DNA of 45,569 nucleotides from Thermoplasmatales archaeon SW_10_69_26. GTDB lineage: Archaea > Thermoplasmatota > SW-10-69-26. The stretch covers positions 1-45,569 of the forward strand of contig PXUB01000006.1 of the NCBI GenBank assembly GCA_003009755.1, read 5' to 3'. Every line of letters begins with the position of its first letter. The first letter of the stretch is position 1. Under the pieces are notes generated by a model, which was given only the letters and a program-made list of their open reading frames with translations, did no database searches and had not been told where the DNA came from. The position numbers and the translations under genes were made by a program. Positions 86 to 28,029 of the stretch are shown one piece after another.

Positions 86-600
86 CCACGGTCAGCACCC
101 TCGACAGAGACCGCTGCGAGGTGTCCACGAGGTCTGCGATGGCGAGCGGTCTCTGGCGATTCGACACGGCCTCGGTGGTATCCACGGTCGGCCGTGCTCT
201 CGCCAGAGACCACCTTGACGTGTCCACGAGGTCCCCGACGGTGCCCGGTCTCTGGCGATCCAGCCGGATCGAAGATCCGGTCTCTGTTCGTGTACGCGAT
301 CTTAAATCCACTGTCGGTACACGATGGCGCGACGCGAGCATCGAGCCTCACGGTGGCTGCGAGGCTAGCGATGCTCGCGATTCGGACGAGCTCTCTCGCG
401 GTTTCCCCAGCTCGTCCTCTCTACGCGATCGTCGTTATATCCATTGGAGGTAGACGATCGCGTAGACGCTGTCACGCGACCATCGGACGAGCGCTCGACA
501 CCGTCAGCGATGGTCGCGATTCGGCCGGATCGAAGATCCGGCCTCTGTTCGTGTACGCGATCTTAGATCCACTGTAGGTACACGATCGCGTAGACGAACA
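86..600. repeat. Tandem array of hairpin cassettes containing duplicated cox3 3' ends
   Basis: 263-325 matches 524-586 at 60/63 nt. cox3-end copies lie at 435-467 and 302-328 (minus). Stems: 546-562/584-600, 523-543, 475-485/508-518, 420-433/453-466, 384-392/409-417, 333-343/369-379, 264-280, 200-211/247-258, 165-171/190-196, 101-115/145-159. GTGTCCACGAGGTC occurs at 121-134 and 220-233. Confidence 0.9.
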
Positions 601-1363
601 CCCAAACCAGGTCAACGAAGTGCCAGTAGATCGCGGCGGCTTCGAGGAGCACGTGGCGTTCGGCGTCGAACTGGTCGTGCACGAACGCCCGCCAGGTGAC
701 GACGCCGAGCACGAACAGGCCGGCGAGCACGTGCAAGCCGTGGGTGCCGGTGAGCAGGTAGAAGGTCGTGCCGAACGGGTGCGTGGTGAGGGTCAGGCCC
801 TCGTGGACCAGGTGGTAGTACTCCATCCCCTGGCCGACCATGAAGATGCCACCCAGCAGGAGCGTGAGCAGCATGTGGCCCTTGAACGCGCTCCGATTGC
901 CGATCCGGAGGGCGCTGTGGGCCCAGTGCATCGTGGCGCCGCTGAACAGCAGAACGATCGTGAACATGCCCGTCGTCCCGATCGGGAGATGCGGCGTGCC
1001 TTCCGGTGGCCACATCGCGGCCGTGTCCGCGAAGTTGTAGTACGTCGCGAACAGCGAGCCGAAGATCATGATCTCGCTGCCGATGAACAACAGCACGCCC
1101 CATCGGCCGACGCGGGGGCCGGTGCCGACGCGGTCGTCGAACCACTCGACGTCCTCCCGAAGCCAGCCGAGCCCGGAGACGGCGAACGCGAGGAACCCGA
1201 CGATCAGCATCGGACCGATGCGCAGCTCGCCCAGGCCCGGGTCCCACACGGTCGGGCCGGGCACGATCAGGCCGAGGCCAAGCAGCACGACCCCGAGGCC
1301 GAAGGCCAGCGGCCACCAGCTCTGGTGCGGGAGCTCGTAGGCTTGGGTCTCGGCGTCAGCCAT
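563..1363 (-). CDS. coxC: Cytochrome c oxidase subunit III
   Basis: Hydrophobic 266 aa with LFIGSE, TGTHGLHV and YWHFVDLVW motifs; abuts the cox1 stop. Confidence 0.95.
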   Translation of the reverse strand: MADAETQAYELPHQSWWPLAFGLGVVLLGLGLIVPGPTVWDPGLGELRIGPMLIVGFLAFAVSGLGWLREDVEWFDDRVGTGPRVGRWGVLLFIGSEIMIFGSLFATYYNFADTAAMWPPEGTPHLPIGTTGMFTIVLLFSGATMHWAHSALRIGNRSAFKGHMLLTLLLGGIFMVGQGMEYYHLVHEGLTLTTHPFGTTFYLLTGTHGLHVLAGLFVLGVVTWRAFVHDQFDAERHVLLEAAAIYWHFVDLVWVFVYAIVYLQWI

Positions 1364-23280: not shown

Positions 23281-23691
23281 TCAATCGCTGACGACGGGGC
23301 CGAACTTGTACCCGTAGTGGACGACGCCGGACTCGCTGGCTTCGCCCAGCTTGCGGAACCGGGATTCCAGCTCCATGCCGATCTCGACCTCCTCGGGATC
23401 GAGGTCGACGATCTGGGCGGTGACGCGGGGGCCCTCGTCGAGCTCGACGATGCCCATCAGGTAGGGCGTCTCGAGTTCGCGGTCGGACAGGGCCTCGTGG
23501 ACGCGCGTCCAGGTGACGAGCTCGCCGGTGCCCTCGAAGCGGACCTCCTCCATCTGGCCCTGGGACTCGTGGCGGCAATCGGGGCAAAGCGAGCGGCGCG
23601 GGAACACGCGCAGCCCGCAGTTGTTGCACTTGCTGCCGACGAGCTTGTAGCGTTCGCTCTGCTCGCGCCAGTAACGGGGAACCTGCATCAC
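23281..23691 (-). CDS. DUF35 Zn-ribbon/OB-fold protein (thiolase-HMGS scaffold)
   Basis: PRYWRE, CNNCG...CPDC, YGYKF; coupled to the thiolase. Confidence 0.93.
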   Translation of the reverse strand: MMQVPRYWREQSERYKLVGSKCNNCGLRVFPRRSLCPDCRHESQGQMEEVRFEGTGELVTWTRVHEALSDRELETPYLMGIVELDEGPRVTAQIVDLDPEEVEIGMELESRFRKLGEASESGVVHYGYKFGPVVSD

Positions 23692-24863
23692 AGCTCACCT
23701 CCGCCTTCGAGGACGTGGACGATCGAGGTCCCGCCGGTGCCGGCCACCGCCTGCGTGAGGCCGACCTGGGCGTCCTCGACCTGCCGTTCGCCCGCATCCC
23801 GTCGGATCTGGGCCGCCACCTCGGCGGCCTGGGCGAGGCCGGTCGCGCCGAGAGCGTGCCCGCGAGCCTTCAGTCCGCCCGAGGGGTTGACGACGAGGTC
23901 GCCGCCGTGCGTGGTGCGGCCCTTGACGGTGGCGGTTGCGGCCATGCCGGGCTCGTAGAAGCCCAGCGATTCGAGCGAGATCAGCTCGGCGATCGTGTAC
24001 ACGTCGTGCAGCTCGGCCAGGTCGACGTCCTCGGGGCCGTGGTCGGTCTCGGCGAAGGCTTCCTCGGCGGCGGCCTGGCTGCTGGCGAGCTCGGTGATCG
24101 CGTCGCGACGGTGCAAGGCCAGCGCGTCGCTGGCTTGCGCGGTCGCCGTGATCTGGACGCGGGGGCCGCCGAGCTGTTCGGCGGTGTCGCGGTCGGCGAG
24201 CACGAGCGCGGCCGCCCCGTCGACGGGGCTGGCACAGTCGAACATGCGGATCGGGTCGCTGACCGGCGGACTGCCCTTGACGCTCTCGAGGCTCGTCGTG
24301 AACGGGAACGCGGCGTCGGGGTTGTCGGCGCCGTGCTCGTGGTTCTTGACGGCCACGTGGGCCAGCTGGTCGCGCGTGGTGCCATGCTCGGCGGCGTGCG
24401 AGCGCGCCATCATGGCGTACAGCGCCGGCAGCGTGGCCCCGAAGAAGCCCTCCCACTCCATGTCGGCGCTCGAGGCCAGCGCGCGGGTCGCATCGTCCTC
24501 GAGCACGTCGGTCATCTTCTCGACGCCACCGGCGACGACCACGTCGTGGGCGCCGGAGGCGACGGCGAGCGCGGCCGATCGCAGGGCCGCAGCCCCGCTC
24601 GCGTCGCCCGCTTCGATGCGGGTGGCGGGCACGTGGTGGCCGGCCAGGCCCGCCTCGTCGAGCGCGAGCACGCCCAGCTGTTGCTGGCCGAGCAACCGGC
24701 CGGCGCTGGCCGAGGCGACGTACATCGCGTCGATGTCCGGGCCACGGACGCCAGCGTCTTGGACGGCCTCGAGCCCGGCCTCGGTGATCAGCTCGCGGAG
24801 AGCCTTCTCCCACAGCTCGCCGAACTCGGTCATGCCGACGCCGACGATGAACACATCACGCAT
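23688..24863 (-). CDS. Archaeal acetoacetyl-CoA thiolase family protein
   Basis: GVGMTEFGELW, GVEKMTD, ELHD, NPSGGLKARGH; expected nucleophile motif reads EAGDASG. Confidence 0.92.
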   Translation of the reverse strand: MRDVFIVGVGMTEFGELWEKALRELITEAGLEAVQDAGVRGPDIDAMYVASASAGRLLGQQQLGVLALDEAGLAGHHVPATRIEAGDASGAAALRSAALAVASGAHDVVVAGGVEKMTDVLEDDATRALASSADMEWEGFFGATLPALYAMMARSHAAEHGTTRDQLAHVAVKNHEHGADNPDAAFPFTTSLESVKGSPPVSDPIRMFDCASPVDGAAALVLADRDTAEQLGGPRVQITATAQASDALALHRRDAITELASSQAAAEEAFAETDHGPEDVDLAELHDVYTIAELISLESLGFYEPGMAATATVKGRTTHGGDLVVNPSGGLKARGHALGATGLAQAAEVAAQIRRDAGERQVEDAQVGLTQAVAGTGGTSIVHVLEGGGEL

Positions 24864-24948
24864 ACGGATCGCCTCCCTCGTGGGGCATCTTGGTGTGCCG
24901 GGTGCGGTAGCGCCACAAGATCGCGATGATCGTGAGCGCGACGATCAT
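24856..24948 (-). CDS. Putative 30-aa membrane micropeptide
   Basis: [30 protein letters not shown]; GGAGGTGA SD; ATGA overlap with the HMGS stop; its stop overlaps the thiolase start. Confidence 0.65.
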
Positions 24949-26003
24949 GCCGTCACCTCCCCTTCATCGATCTTGCCGCGGAACTTCGCGTACGTGGCGT
25001 AGTCGATCTCCTTGCGGTCGTCGACCAGATCGCGCACGGTCGGCGAGCTCCGGCGGTAGTCGGCCATCTCCTCGGTGACCGTCAGGTCGAAGGCGTCGGA
25101 GCCGGCGCCCGAGCCGTAGCCGCACACGAAGATGCGGCTGCCGGGCCGGGCGACGTCGAGGATGGCGGACAAGCCGATCAGGACGGCCCCGGAGTAGGTG
25201 TTGCCGATGACGGGCGCCAGAAGGCCGGTCTCCGTCTGCTTGTCGGAGAAGCCCAGCTGCTTGGCGGCGCGCACCGGGAACTTGCCGTTGGGCTGGTGGA
25301 AGACGGCGTAATCGTAGTCCTCGGGCTCGGTGCCCGCCTCCTCCAACAGCTGGTTGCTGCAGTTGAGCGTGTGCCGGTAGTAGGCGGGTTCGCCCGTGAA
25401 GCGGGCGGCGTGGGAGGGGTACTTCTCGCCCTCGCGCCGCCAGAAGTCGGGGGTGTCGGTCGTGTAGCTGACGGTGTGATCGATCTCGGCGATGATGTCA
25501 TCGTCGTCAGTGCCGATCTGGAAGGCGGCCGCGCCCGCGCTGGCGGCGTACTCGAGCGCGTCGCCGGGGGCGCCCTGGCTCGTGTCGGCGCCGATGGCGA
25601 GCGCGGTGTCAACCATGCCGGAGGACACCATGCCCAGCGAGGACTGGATCGCGGCCGTGCCGGCCTTGCAGGCGAACTCGAAGTCGGCGGCCGTCATGCG
25701 CGGCGAGGCGCCGATGGCCTCGGCCACGATCGTCGCCGTCGGTTTGACGGCGTAGACGTGGCTCTCGGAGCCGATGTAGATCGCGCCCAGCGCGTCGGGG
25801 CCGCGATCCGAGCGGCGCAGCGCTTGTCGGGCAGCCTCGACGGACAGCGTCGTCGTGTCCTCGTCGGGGCCGGGGACGGACTTCTCTTGCACGTTGAGGC
25901 CCTTGGCGACGGAGTTGTCCTCCTTGCCCCACACGCGGGAGATCTCCTCGGTGGTGATCCGGTAGCGCGGGATCCAGGCCCCGTAGCTGACGATGCCGAC
26001 CAT
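24945..26003 (-). CDS. Hydroxymethylglutaryl-CoA synthase, archaeal type
   Basis: [44 protein letters not shown]. Confidence 0.96.
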
Positions 26004-26005
26004 GC

Positions 26006-26695
26006 TTACACCTTCCTCAGGTCTTCGATCATGCTCTCGAGTCCGACGGTCGTCGAGACCAGCGGGATGCCTTCCATGCCGGCCAGCTTGGTCGCGAGAT
26101 CGTCCACGCTCTTGGGCTGGTGGTAGACGACCATCGCCGGCTTCATCGGGTGAACGCGCACGGCCACCATCGGGCTGCGTCCGTACGTGATGCCGGTGAA
26201 GATGAGCGCTCGCTCGCTCGACCACCCGTACATCTTGAGGTAGTCGAAGCTGGACAGCTCGGTGATCGCCTTCAACGAGTCGACGACCGTGTAGCCTTTC
26301 AGCTCGCGGTCGAGGTCGTCCTCGGCGGCGAGCACGTCCCCGTCCAGCGTCTCGACGATGTCGCGCGCCGGCACGGGCTCGTACAGTTCGCGGATGTCCA
26401 AGATCGCCCCAGGCGTGTCCCGCAGCGAGGAGTACTTCCGCAACACGGAGCCACCCTGGGCTTCGTCGATGTCCAGCAGGGCTTGCACCATGCGGCGCAC
26501 GGTCTTCGTGCCCGGGCTCTCGCGGCGACCGGACTCGTAGTCGGAGATCACGCTGGGGGAGACGTCCAGTTGTTCGGCGAGATCCGTCTGCGAGACGCCG
26601 AACGTCCCCCGCCACTTCTTGATCGTCTGGCCGGGATTCTCGGACAGCGAGATCTCGCCGGCCATCTTCTCCGCGAGCACCGCCCGGGTCTGCAT
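26006..26695 (-). CDS. XRE-family HTH transcriptional regulator (COG1709-like)
   Basis: [48 protein letters not shown]. Confidence 0.9.
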
Positions 26696-26864
26696 CCACC
26701 CCGGACAGCACCCTCTCCCTCATAACTGTTGCCGATTCCGGGTACGTCGGACGTCGAAGGGAACCGTTCATCCGGGGGTTGCCCCCGAACGCGCGATTCG
26801 TCCTCTGACGCTCGGGGCAACCGAAGGCTTATCCCTGAGCCGGCTCGCACCCATCAGACCCGCC

Positions 26865-27493: not shown

Positions 27494-27771
27494 AGCGGTC
27501 GACCGCGTCGCCGTCCCGACCTGGGAGGAGTCGCTTGCCCGAACCGCCGCCGGCCCTCACGATGGCCACCGATCGCGACCGGGATGGACGTGCTGAAGCT
27601 GGATTAGGCTTCGAGAAGAGGACGACGCCGGACGGAGAGGGTCGACAGGCACGTAGCGAGGGCGGTATCGATGGGACGGTGGGAGAAAAGCGGAGGAGAT
27701 CGCGGAAGGCAACGAAACGAAGCAGAGGCCAACGGGGACGGAGATGTGGCCGAAACGGCGAGGGCGTCGAC

Positions 27772-27954
27772 CCGGTCAACGCTGCTGTGGTGCAATCAGG
27801 GTCTATGGGCGAGGGTCTGCAAGATCAGAGACCGCCATGGCGCAATGTTCGCGGCGGTCTCTGACTTCACCCGAACGCTCGTCACCGCCGTATCCGCGAG
27901 CGTTCGGGTTCGTTCAAATCCGGTCAGGCGCCGCTATGGCGTAGTAGAAGACTA
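27772..27954. repeat. Three-hairpin cassette with duplicated tRNA 3' end
   Basis: 27912-27925 is a perfect inverted copy of tRNA 27962-27975; stems 27869-27881/27897-27909 and 27825-27836/27853-27864; CTATGGGCGAG at 27803-27813 and 27952-27962. Confidence 0.85.
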
Positions 27955-28029
27955 TGGGCGAGACCGGATTTGAACCGGCGACCTCCCGGTTATCAGCCGG
28001 GTGCTCCAGCCTGGCTAAGCTACTCGCCC
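27955..28029 (-). tRNA. tRNA-Ile(GAT)
   Basis: GGGCGAG/CTCGCCC acceptor stem, CCCGG-CTGATAA-CCGGG anticodon arm, GGTTCAAATCC T arm; no encoded CCA; TTATAG ~27 nt upstream. Confidence 0.97.

What the first reader, a model, noticed from the sequence alone, without database searches (positions are those of the whole stretch)
27772..27975. Same cassette architecture at the tRNA-Ile 3' end with a different target-matching arm
Seen: a perfect 14-bp inverted copy of the tRNA T-arm region (27912-27925), a 13-bp hairpin, a GACTTC linker and a 12-bp hairpin follow the tRNA. The last stem core CAGAGACCGC/GCGGTCTCTG is identical to the one at 105-114/146-155. An 11-bp duplicate of the tRNA end lies 149 bp away, followed by a decayed CCGGTCA arm. 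Order and orientation relative to the gene match the cox3 units. Inference: one scaffold with a variable arm complementary to the host gene end suggests a programmable RNA- or ssDNA-guided targeting element, or a 3'-end regulatory structure that can refold the tRNA precursor.
Basis: partly seen in the sequence, partly recalled or inferred. Interest (0 to 1): 0.82.

Follow-up and report, generated by a model that had tools for sequence, protein, structure and literature searches.

The report
Hairpin insertion cassettes at gene ends
The hairpins behind this archaeal tRNA-Ile gene are one copy of a family of small non-coding DNA cassettes inserted at the ends of tRNA genes and a few protein genes, each carrying a spare copy and an inverted copy of the gene end it sits on.

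Summary
Downstream of tRNA-Ile (27955-28029, minus strand) lie a perfect 14-nt inverted copy of the T-arm, two perfect hairpins, and an 11-nt direct repeat of the tRNA end 149 nt away.

It is not a one-off. In this 2.8-Mb, 69% GC genome of a Thermoplasmatota archaeon, 17 of 45 credible tRNA genes carry a perfect inverted copy of 10 nt or more of their own 3' part. Most also have hairpins and then a direct repeat of the tRNA end. A few protein genes, cox3 in this window among them, show the same build. Their displaced gene ends differ from the live ends almost only at synonymous sites.

Relatives across the phylum have it too, and the inverted arm changes along with the tRNA. Contigs of related strains carry an extra unit at this very locus.

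My best reading (0.55) is a small, cargo-less cassette inserted by recombination at the gene end, probably moved in trans by a site-specific recombinase. The enzyme and the role of the inverted arm are not shown.

"Programmable guide" remains an open possibility at about 0.17. Six literature searches found no description of this.

The parts
27955..28029 (-). tRNA-Ile(GAT), the target gene. It is intact, and no CCA is encoded.
   Evidence: ARAGORN; Rfam RF00005, 66.7 bits.
27962..27975 (-). Target arm: T-loop and 3' T-stem of the tRNA, which pairs with the inverted copy.
   Evidence: the repeat finder I1.
27952..27962 (-). Direct-repeat copy 1: the last 8 nt of the tRNA plus 3 nt of trailer.
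   Evidence: the coordinates are read.
27926..27951 (-). Spacer, which forms the loop of the long hairpin. It is homologous to the spacers of relatives and of the displaced unit.
27912..27925 (-). Inverted copy of the tRNA T-arm, 14 nt and perfect.
   Evidence: Conserved and co-varying in relatives.
27869..27909 (-). Hairpin X: 13-bp perfect stem, 15-nt loop, of the CGAAC / GTTCG stem type.
   Evidence: I2; the family is listed.
27825..27864 (-). Hairpin Y: 12-bp perfect stem, 16-nt loop, of the AGAGACCGC type. Its closest copy is at G000:C25:104349-104382.
   Evidence: I3; (88% over 34 nt).
27814..27824 (-). 11-nt joint between hairpin Y and the direct repeat.
   Evidence: In the folds it pairs with the tRNA just 5' of the T-arm.
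27803..27813 (-). Direct-repeat copy 2: the displaced tRNA end.
27766..27802 (-).
   Evidence: D1. My hand comparison finds this spacer 17 of 23 identical to the first spacer of relative G005.
563..595 (-). Last 33 nt of cox3 including the stop codon: the target of the same architecture.
   Evidence: Pfam COX3, 7.6e-38; sequence.
551..562 (-). Inverted copy of the cox3 end, directly after the stop codon. The stop codon lies in the loop.
   Evidence: (C6 554-592, stem 9, loop 21).
435..467 (-). Displaced copy of the cox3 end. Its 4 differences from the live end are all synonymous and the stop codon is kept.
   Evidence: read by hand in frame.
420..434 (-). Inverted arm that pairs with the displaced cox3 copy (14-bp perfect stem, 420-433 / 453-466).
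290..325 (-). Third, partial cox3 end copy (302-325) and its inverted arm (290-301).
105..254 (.). Two AGAGACC-type hairpins (105-155 and 204-254) with a CGAAC-type hairpin between them: cassette modules in the cox3 array.

Best explanation
The 27766-27975 stretch is inserted DNA. It is one ~140-nt, non-coding member of a family of hairpin cassettes that sit at gene ends in this Thermoplasmatota archaeon and its relatives. Most are at tRNA 3' ends, some at tRNA 5' ends, and a few at protein-gene 3' ends.

Read in the sense of the gene, a unit consists of:
1. the live gene end;
2. a spacer of 9-36 nt, longer in some loci;
3. an inverted copy (10-18 nt) of the gene end that spans the left edge of the repeat;
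4. one or two perfect hairpins drawn from a small set of dispersed families, joined by GA or GAAG linkers;
5. a direct repeat of the gene end.

The direct repeat is the old gene end, pushed downstream when the cassette came in with its own copy. This is how site-specific integrating elements rebuild their target. Units pile up in tandem, with the newest next to the gene.

At this locus the unit next to the tRNA is the later arrival. The displaced unit behind it is the counterpart of the single unit in relative G005, and its inverted arm has decayed.

Inferred, not shown: the cassettes have no genes, so they would be moved in trans by a recombinase. The tyrosine integrases found next to tRNAs in the same genome are the first candidates. 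The inverted arm plus hairpins would form the folded or palindromic attachment site.

The long hairpin with the gene end may also act as a terminator.
For: Shown:
1. Anatomy at the locus and strong folding (z = -7.2).
2. Genome-wide recurrence. 17 of 45 tRNAs carry an own-3'-part inverted copy of 10 nt or more, and 13 of 45 one of 14 nt or more, against 9 of 1980 mismatched pairs. In 15 of these 17 loci a direct repeat of the tRNA end of 10-28 nt follows the inverted copy. Five more tRNAs have the repeat with only an imperfect inverted arm.
3. Hairpin plus downstream repeat of its 5' arm of 14 nt or more: 123 of 5411 cases against 1 of 5369 in an offset control.
4. Strong tRNA bias, as in integrating elements. 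ORF-end inverted copies of 12 nt or more occur in 7 of 1701 ORFs against 1 of 1701 when permuted.
5. Displaced protein-gene ends look like alleles (read by hand in frame).
   - cox3: 4 of 4 differences are synonymous.
   - C40 ORF: GTA>GTC, GAA>GAG, TAG>TGA.
   - C17 ORF: GGA>GGC, ACC>ACG, TGA>TAG.
   - Two stop-to-stop swaps each need two changes.
6. Tandem units: 5 units at C19 orf44956-46011, plus arrays at C14, C3, C32 and C47.
7. Relatives. tRNA-Ile carries the inverted arm in G005, G003, G002, G027 and G007, but not in G001, G004, G036, G030, G015 or G010. In G000, G005, G003, G027 and G007 the arm pairs in 98.5% of cells, with 2 compensatory pairs. The spacers have diverged; by hand, G000 and G005 are 17 of 29 identical.
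8. Phylum survey. A T-loop followed by its inverted copy was found in 33 of 401 genomes, and the reversed control pattern in 0. By eye, about half of the matches extend into tRNA-specific bases.
9. Strain polymorphism. Contigs of two runs, X3 and X5, carry an extra unit at this locus. The joint runs from 27971 back to 27909 with 68 other letters between.
10. Three PF00589 integrases, each next to a tRNA. One sits in a 4.2-kb stretch with a methylase and a BamHI-like endonuclease. That stretch ends in inverted copy, two hairpins and direct repeat.
Against: - No recombinase is linked to the cassettes by anything but neighbourhood.
- Only 3 integrase genes were found for more than 25 different targets, in an assembly rated 95% complete.
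- The boundaries of the 4.2-kb candidate are ambiguous, because a further short inverted copy lies at its left edge. The other two integrase elements (C1, C19) lack the hairpin module at their far end.
- A protein cannot plausibly recognise the unrelated arms of tRNAs, cox3 and other ORFs, so classic protein-read attachment sites do not explain the perfectly matched inverted arm.
- In 13 of 16 tRNA loci that arm reaches 4-13 nt to the left of the repeat. It therefore copies target sequence that the cassette does not carry in direct form.
- A 90-150-bp double-stranded circle is an unlikely intermediate.
- The joint in run X3 has only 28 letters on its shorter side, and reads were laid at 85% likeness. 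The tool warns that such joints can come from other organisms or repeats. X5 has 83 letters there.
- My gene calls are crude (GC3-based ORFs), and the counts of synonymous changes are small and made by hand.
Confidence: 0.55

Rival explanations
1. Nucleic-acid-templated targeting, the first reader's 'programmable' idea. The cassette carries two target-derived segments: a direct copy of the sequence right of the crossover, and an inverted copy spanning the junction. Folded as single-stranded DNA or as RNA, these would pair with the two strands of the target and direct a structure-specific recombinase. The target would then be set by the cassette's own sequence, not by the protein.
For: - One scaffold sits on many unrelated targets with perfect arms.
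- Near-identical hairpin modules occur on different targets: 21 of 351 locus pairs share a stretch, some at 94-100% identity.
- The inverted arm includes target bases left of the repeat in 13 of 16 loci.
- There are few integrases for many targets.
- Three IS110-family (PF01548) genes are present in the genome. That this family uses guide RNAs with two arms pairing to opposite strands is my recollection, not read here.
- The arm is kept perfect while the spacers diverge.
Against: - No enzyme, transcript or single-stranded form was seen.
- Rfam gives no match other than the tRNA, apart from one chance-level hit.
- The IS110 copies are not next to cassettes, and their far ends are lost at contig ends.
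- Shared modules can also spread by gene conversion between arrays.
- How a new pair of arms would be acquired is unexplained.
- The strong tRNA bias is what protein-read integrases show.
Confidence: 0.17
2. Host-useful 3'-end structures. The gene-end hairpin, with the stop codon or tRNA end in or near the loop, and the following hairpins would act as transcription terminators or RNA-end protectors in a GC-rich archaeon that has few T-runs. Selection keeps them, and they spread between strains by ordinary recombination.
For: - In GC-rich Haloferax volcanii a hairpin upstream of a termination site stopped 59% of transcripts in a reporter test, and a non-T-run motif 11-27% (PMC7237163, passages read).
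- The arm is kept perfect in relatives while spacers drift.
- The displaced arm at this locus has decayed.
- The RNA fold is very stable (z = -6.8).
Against: - Only 7 of 1701 ORF ends have such an arm, against 13-17 of 45 tRNAs. A general terminator would be common at protein genes.
- In a pre-tRNA a 14-18-bp helix would compete with the T-arm and acceptor stem.
- In low-GC relatives T-runs lie in the spacer before the arm (one search matches, for example G117 and G109). By established knowledge of archaeal termination at oligo-T, the arm may therefore not be transcribed with the tRNA.
- This reading does not by itself explain the direct repeats, the tandem units, or the mirror-image units at tRNA 5' ends.
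Confidence: 0.13
3. By-product of replication or repair. Template switching at palindromic sites would give 'direct - inverted - direct' triplications of the gene end, and unequal crossing-over would then multiply the units. No dedicated mobility would be involved.
For: - The arrangement is the known signature of two template switches (from my own knowledge).
- A minimal form with only spacer and inverted copy between two direct copies exists in an IMG/VR contig (L200:13652-13740).
- Tandem arrays with near-identical units exist.
Against: - The displaced ends differ from the live ends mostly at synonymous sites and by stop-to-stop swaps. A copy born identical and then left to decay would not show this.
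- The hairpins between the copies are not copies of local sequence. They are shared with other loci.
- The strain variant brings 68 new letters.
Confidence: 0.08

Closest known systems
Genomic islands and proviruses that integrate into tRNA genes by tyrosine integrases
   Same: The principle is stated in the abstract of PMC4383910, seen in the listing. The target is the 3' part of a tRNA gene. The incoming DNA restores the gene, and the displaced fragment remains as a direct repeat marking the far end. Arrays build up at one tRNA. The repeat often starts in the T-loop. Here three such integrase elements sit at tRNAs in the same genome.
   Different: The cassette is 90-330 nt long and has no gene. 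It carries a perfect inverted copy of the target plus hairpins. The same scaffold also sits on protein-gene ends and on tRNA 5' ends.
Non-autonomous derivatives of integrating elements: cis-mobilisable elements, and satellites that borrow an integrase
   Same: Attachment sites without their own integrase, tandem accretion at one site, and presumed mobilisation in trans.
   Different: The known ones are kilobase-sized and carry genes. This comparison rests on my own knowledge. The reviews PMC5704250 and PMC5812530 were seen only in the listing. Nothing so small, and nothing with an inverted target copy, turned up in my searches.
Integron cassettes and their attC sites
   Same: Arrays of units each bounded by an imperfectly conserved palindromic site that is recognised by structure rather than sequence. 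Insertion is next to a fixed point, with the newest unit first.
   Different: No integron integrase was found (TIGR02249). The units have no ORFs. The stems here are perfect and copy the target. There are many insertion points, not one attI.
REP / BIME and other intergenic palindromic repeat mosaics
   Same: GC-rich perfect hairpins of a few families, combined in mosaics after gene ends and joined by short fixed linkers.
   Different: No RAYT/Y1 transposase was found (PF01797). One arm of the first hairpin lies inside the gene. There are direct repeats of the gene end and a tRNA bias.
IS110-family elements with bridge RNA
   Same: The idea of two short target-matching segments in one structured scaffold. 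IS110-family genes are present in this genome.
   Different: As I recall, IS110 insertions leave no long direct repeat and the guides are a few nucleotides long. The cassettes are not next to the IS copies, and no RNA family match was found.

Membership tests
tRNA-integrating element of the tyrosine-integrase type | The target gene is regenerated and intact. | tested here: met
   tRNA-Ile scores 66.7 bits against RF00005 and ARAGORN calls it.
tRNA-integrating element of the tyrosine-integrase type | A displaced fragment of the target lies at the far end as a direct repeat. | tested here: met
   The 11-nt exact repeat 27803-27813 = 27952-27962. Direct repeats of 10-28 nt follow the inverted copy in 15 of the 17 tRNA loci that have one.
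tRNA-integrating element of the tyrosine-integrase type | An integrase gene lies inside the element. | tested here: not met
   The unit is about 140 nt and non-coding. Integrases exist elsewhere, at C2, C19 and C1, each beside a tRNA.
MITE | Terminal inverted repeats and a fixed-length target-site duplication. | tested here: not met
   The ends of the unit are not inverted repeats of each other. The direct repeats vary from 10 to 33 nt and differ from the live end at synonymous sites.
REP/BIME with RAYT | A Y1 (RAYT) transposase in the genome. | tested here: not met
   PF01797: 0 matches in G000, which is rated 95% complete.
Integron | An integron integrase. | tested here: not met
   TIGR02249: 0 matches at E <= 0.001.
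Integron | attC with conserved R''/R' boxes and extrahelical bases. | not tested
   The stems here are perfect. No attC model was run.
Casposon or casposon-derived element | A Cas1 casposase, terminal inverted repeats and a 14-15-bp target duplication. | tested here: not met
   PF01867: 0 matches. There are no terminal inverted repeats, and the repeats look like alleles.
IS200/IS605 or TnpB element | A Y1 transposase or TnpB. | tested here: not met
   PF01797 and PF07282: 0 matches.
IS110 family with bridge RNA | A DEDD transposase beside the structured non-coding end. | tested here: not met
   Three PF01548 hits, at C3, C2 and C41. None is near a cassette that I examined, and their far ends are cut by contig ends.
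Retroelement | A reverse transcriptase. | tested here: not met
   PF00078: 0 matches.
Intrinsic terminator, bacterial type | A GC-rich hairpin followed by a T-run. | tested here: not met
   No T-run follows any of the three hairpins.
Known RNA family (Rfam 15) | A match at or near the gathering score. | tested here: not met
   Only the tRNA matches. The one other hit is at E = 0.19, 19.6 bits against a cut-off of 65.7, and lies on the tRNA itself.

The most novel reading that the evidence does not exclude
The cassettes are a reprogrammable insertion system. Two target-derived segments sit in one folded scaffold. One is a direct copy of the gene end, and it becomes the new gene end. The other is an inverted copy spanning the crossover. 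Together they choose the site by base pairing for a structure-specific recombinase. One machinery could then serve dozens of unrelated gene ends in archaea.
Probability: 0.17. Interest if true: 0.9.

Novelty: new variant of a known kind. Interest (0 to 1): 0.72.

Why it matters
If the reading holds, gene-end replacement by site-specific insertion is not confined to kilobase islands. It also works at the scale of 100-nt gene-less units.

- These units fill the flanks of a third of the tRNA genes of an archaeon and recur across a phylum.
- The displaced ends are a fossil record of alleles from other lineages, so they can be used to trace gene flow.
- The perfectly matched inverted arm on unrelated targets poses a clear mechanistic question: how does a gene-less cassette come to hold both a direct and an inverted copy of each target?
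- If the answer is base pairing, the system would be a natural, compact, sequence-addressed way of inserting DNA.
- In practice, such units produce tRNA fragments and hairpins that confuse tRNA finders, terminator predictors and assemblers.

Tried and rejected
- **Strain-level comparison through the neighbouring NUDIX gene.** It gave no filled/empty-site comparison.
- **Far ends of integrase elements in relatives.** Homologues of the C2 integrase sit next to tRNA-Arg, -Gly, -Asn, -Val, -Pro and -Glu genes. The four stretches I fetched ended at contig ends or held no second copy of the tRNA end. Whether those elements end in the hairpin module is unknown.
- **IS110 link.** The two full copies share 85% identity from about 65 nt before the ORF to the contig ends. 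Their downstream non-coding ends are not assembled, so this cannot be judged.
- **Genome-wide listing of 13-mers of every tRNA end.** Too noisy to use, because T-loops are shared and the genome is GC-rich. Only the same-contig distal hits already known came out.
- **RNA evidence.** The RNA runs offered hold 4-6% of the sampled words. I did not lay them, so nothing is known about transcription.
- **CRISPR, C/D-box guide, primer-binding-site and split-tRNA readings.** I considered these from the sequence and dropped them:
  - no C or D boxes next to the arm;
  - no complement of CCA;
  - the tRNA is whole.
- **Aloposons (PMC8813620, passages read).** These are giant-gene elements at tRNA sites and are not related to this.
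- **Viral contigs.** 15 stretches match the T-loop palindrome pattern. Two (L205, L200) show the full build. Their hosts are unknown.
- **Supplementary files of papers** were not opened.
Full report
**What is in the window**

The window is contig C6 of a 2.82-Mb, 49-contig, 69% GC assembly rated 95% complete. Its cytochrome oxidase subunit I is closest, at 70% identity, to proteins of uncultured Thermoplasmatota/Thermoplasmatales MAGs. The window also holds HMG-CoA-synthase-like and thiolase genes side by side. Several tRNAs are predicted with introns, and none of those I looked at encodes CCA. I therefore take the organism to be a Thermoplasmatota archaeon. The runs that hold the stretch are labelled halite metagenome.

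**The observation**

tRNA-Ile(GAT) lies at 27955-28029 on the minus strand. Read in the sense of the tRNA, the features that follow the gene are these:

| Feature | Window coordinates |
|---|---|
| Spacer, 29 nt | 27926-27954 |
| Perfect 14-nt inverted copy of the T-loop and T-stem | 27912-27925 (pairs with 27962-27975) |
| Linker GA | 27910-27911 |
| Hairpin X, 13-bp perfect stem | 27869-27909 |
| Linker GAAG | 27865-27868 |
| Hairpin Y, 12-bp perfect stem | 27825-27864 |
| Joint, 11 nt | 27814-27824 |
| Exact 11-nt repeat of the tRNA end plus 3 trailer bases | 27803-27813 (= 27952-27962) |

- The similarity runs on past the repeat to 34 nt at 71%. It ends in a decayed copy of the inverted arm.
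- As single-stranded DNA the stretch folds at -56.4 kcal/mol, against -32.8 +/- 3.3 for shuffles.
- The Y stem core is the same as at 105-155. Such AGAGACC...GGTCTCT hairpins occur 10 times in the genome.

**It is a genome-wide family**

ARAGORN finds 57 tRNAs. 45 of them remain after I drop those inside GC3-supported ORFs or without an assigned anticodon.

- A perfect inverted copy of 10 nt or more of the tRNA's own last 40 nt lies within 150 nt downstream in 17 of the 45.
- One of 14 nt or more lies there in 13 of the 45.
- With tRNA ends paired to the downstream regions of other tRNAs, 9 of 1980 pairs reach 14 nt.
- In 15 of the 17 loci a direct repeat of the tRNA end of 10-28 nt follows the inverted copy. 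It usually starts in the T-loop at (G)AATCC and usually runs a few bases into the trailer.
- Five further tRNAs have the repeat with only an imperfect inverted arm.
- Units stand in tandem at tRNA-Leu(tag), Gly(tcc), Arg(tcg) and Leu(cag).
- Taking every perfect hairpin with a stem of 9 nt or more, a repeat of 14 nt or more of its 5' arm lies 20-420 nt downstream in 123 of 5411 cases. An offset control gives 1 of 5369.

**Protein genes**

cox3 (563-1363, minus strand) ends with 33 nt (595-563). The array that follows is listed here:

| Element after cox3 | Coordinates | Note |
|---|---|---|
| Inverted copy | 562-551 | directly after the stop codon |
| Hairpins | between 550 and 468 | |
| Second copy of the 33 nt | 467-435 | 4 differences, all synonymous; stop codon kept |
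| Its own inverted arm | 434-420 | |
| Third, partial copy | 325-302 | one synonymous and one Leu-to-Arg change |
| Its inverted arm | 301-290 | |

Other ORF ends show the same build:

- **C40 orf34400-35347:** differences are GTA>GTC, GAA>GAG and TAG>TGA.
- **C17 orf34262-35200:** differences are GGA>GGC, ACC>ACG and TGA>TAG.
- **C24 orf9056-11050:** two synonymous changes, then the copies diverge.
- **C19 orf44956-46011:** five tandem units of about 90 nt.

Two stop-to-stop swaps each need two base changes, and synonymous changes predominate. This means both copies were once working gene ends in different lineages. The repeats are therefore imported alleles, not duplications made at the moment of insertion.

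The counts are small and were made by hand. Overall such arms are rare at ORF ends: 7 of 1701 at 12 nt or more, against 1 of 1701 when permuted. The family is strongly biased to tRNAs.

**Mirror-image units at tRNA 5' ends**

At three tRNAs the first 23-25 nt of the gene, together with upstream sequence, are repeated upstream, with the same hairpin types between the copies. These are Arg(cct), Ser(tga) and Arg(tcg).

**Relatives**

- The orthologous tRNA-Ile carries the inverted arm in G005, G003 and G002 (same family), in G007 (same class) and in G027 (another family, low GC, with tandem units).
- It does not in G001, G004, G036, G030, G015 or G010.
- Where the tRNA differs, the arm differs with it. 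Across five genomes 98.5% of cells pair and two pairs show compensatory changes, though 23 of 500 shuffles do as well.
- The spacers have drifted while the arm stayed perfect. By hand, G000 and G005 are 17 of 29 identical.
- The spacer of the displaced unit in the window is 17 of 23 identical to the first spacer of G005 (hand comparison). The unit next to the tRNA is therefore the later arrival, and the displaced arm has since decayed.
- A T-loop followed within 12-42 nt by its inverted copy occurs in 33 of 401 genomes sampled from the phylum. The reversed control pattern gives none. By eye about half of the places extend into tRNA-specific bases. The rest are T-loop-only matches or convergent tRNA genes.
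- Two IMG/VR contigs show the full build (L205, L200).

**Variation among strains**

Contigs of four runs from another study cover the cassette with few differences.

- In X3 and X5 one contig each goes from 27971 back to 27909 with 68 other letters between. That is an extra unit whose repeat starts in the T-loop.
- The X5 contig has 83 letters on the shorter side of the joint. The X3 contig has only 28.
- The reads were laid at 85% likeness, for which the tool urges caution.
- One X3 contig has other sequence in place of hairpin Y.

**Enzymes**

| Searched in G000 | Result |
|---|---|
| PF00589 tyrosine integrase | 3 matches, each next to a tRNA (Gly-ccc, Phe, Glu-ctc) |
| PF01548 IS110 family | 3 matches |
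| PF00239 serine recombinase | 1 match |
| Y1 transposase | none |
| TnpB | none |
| Reverse transcriptase | none |
| Cas1 | none |
| Integron integrase | none |

At tRNA-Phe a 13.4-kb integrase element lies between the gene and a displaced end. That end is itself followed by spacer, inverted arm, hairpins and a further repeat.

At tRNA-Gly(ccc) a cassette comes first, followed by 4.2 kb of genes. These are:
- an integrase catalytic domain;
- an N6/N4 methylase;
- a small HTH protein;
- a BamHI-like endonuclease.

After the genes come an inverted T-arm copy, two hairpins and a 17-nt repeat with one mismatch. This is a candidate cargo-bearing version. Its left edge is unclear, because another short inverted copy lies there.

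**What the arm is**

- In 13 of 16 tRNA loci the inverted arm reaches 4-13 nt to the left of the repeat and overlaps it by 1-13 nt.
- At C19 all five arms match the live gene, not the neighbouring displaced copy.
- The arm therefore copies the intact target across the presumed crossover point.
- Hairpin modules are shared between loci with different targets, in 21 of 351 locus pairs.
- Linkers between adjacent hairpins are GA/TC in 18 and GAA/TTC in 8 of 56 pairs.

**Reading**

The repeats, allele-like displaced ends, tandem growth, strain variation, tRNA bias and co-location with integrase elements make inserted, gene-end-replacing cassettes the best account. That they move in trans by a site-specific recombinase is inference. 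A protein-read site does not explain perfect arms on unrelated targets, so a base-pairing role stays open. A terminator role may coexist with either; hairpins do terminate in Haloferax volcanii (PMC7237163, passages read). Pure template switching fits the layout but not the synonymous differences or the shared foreign hairpins.

**Literature**

Six full-text searches listed nothing that describes this build. I saw only listings and abstract starts, except for passages of PMC7237163 and PMC8813620. Papers outside the library and supplementary files were not seen.

Noticed in passing
G000:C34:10065-10394, G000:C1:123368-123697, G000:C32:66766-67095 (not in the window): Mirror-image units at tRNA 5' ends. 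The first 23-25 nt of tRNA-Arg(cct), Ser(tga) and Arg(tcg), together with upstream sequence, are repeated two or three times with the same hairpin types between them. In one case the upstream sequence includes a TATA-like TTATAT inside a hairpin made of copies of the anticodon arm.
   Followed up: partly
L173:512-4222 (G000:C2:33411-37121): A small island at tRNA-Gly(ccc). It holds a tyrosine integrase catalytic domain of 214 aa, whereas its homologues in relatives lie in open frames of 371-509 aa, so it may be split or truncated. It also holds an N6/N4 DNA methylase with an HTH domain, a small HTH protein and a BamHI-like restriction endonuclease.
   Followed up: partly
G000: downstream of tRNA-Gly(gcc) on C30 (48964-49040), tRNA-Gln(ttg) on C42 (19563-19635) and tRNA-Thr(cgt) on C48 (19803-19875): A conserved stretch of about 40 nt lies 60-100 nt after three unrelated tRNAs. 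It has a GGTGTCGC...TGCAT core followed by a short hairpin. It is unexplained and may be a small RNA or another element end.
   Followed up: no
G000:C27:4683-4729, C27:6189-6231, C29:7012-7056, C38:41648-41689, C25:104403-104445, C1:114096-114139: A hairpin family starting CTTCTCGAC or CTTCTCAGC that begins right at the last base of several tRNAs or of displaced tRNA ends. The trailer TTCTC is shared by about 19 of the 57 predicted tRNAs.
   Followed up: no
G000:C5:5548-5690, C22:11922-11974, C43:26991-27043, C45:16700-16770: A low-GC hairpin or repeat family with GAAAATTTCC, which stands out in a 69% GC genome. One copy sits in the insert behind an ORF whose last 70 nt are exactly duplicated (C45 orf14097-16658).
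   Followed up: no
G000:C12:17619, C17:66009, C30:62285, C30:94424, C32:56141, C41:49077, C41:62040, C43:28913: Eight or more hairpins with 12-14-bp GC stems and T-rich loops of about 30 nt, flanked by GGGCC...GGCCC. This is a separate dispersed repeat family.
   Followed up: no
G000:C3:88268-89666 and G000:C2:62080-63482: Two IS110-family copies, 85% identical, both running into contig ends. A third, partial hit lies at C41:8005-8124.
   Followed up: partly
L205:8287-8440 and L200:13652-13740 (IMG/VR contigs): tRNA 3' fragments followed by spacer, inverted copy and a direct repeat, in viral or proviral contigs of 50% and 43% GC. L200 has the minimal form, without extra hairpins.
   Followed up: partly
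window 23281-26771: Thiolase, an HMG-CoA-synthase-like gene and a 136-aa ORF lie side by side on the minus strand. This looks like the archaeal acetoacetyl-CoA thiolase / HMG-CoA synthase cluster. The small ORF was not scanned.
   Followed up: no
window 27790-28029 (RNA fold): In the RNA fold of tRNA plus cassette, the 5' acceptor strand pairs with the downstream repeat rather than with the tRNA's own 3' end, and the whole cassette sits like a giant insertion. This follows from the repeat and is probably of no functional weight.
   Followed up: no
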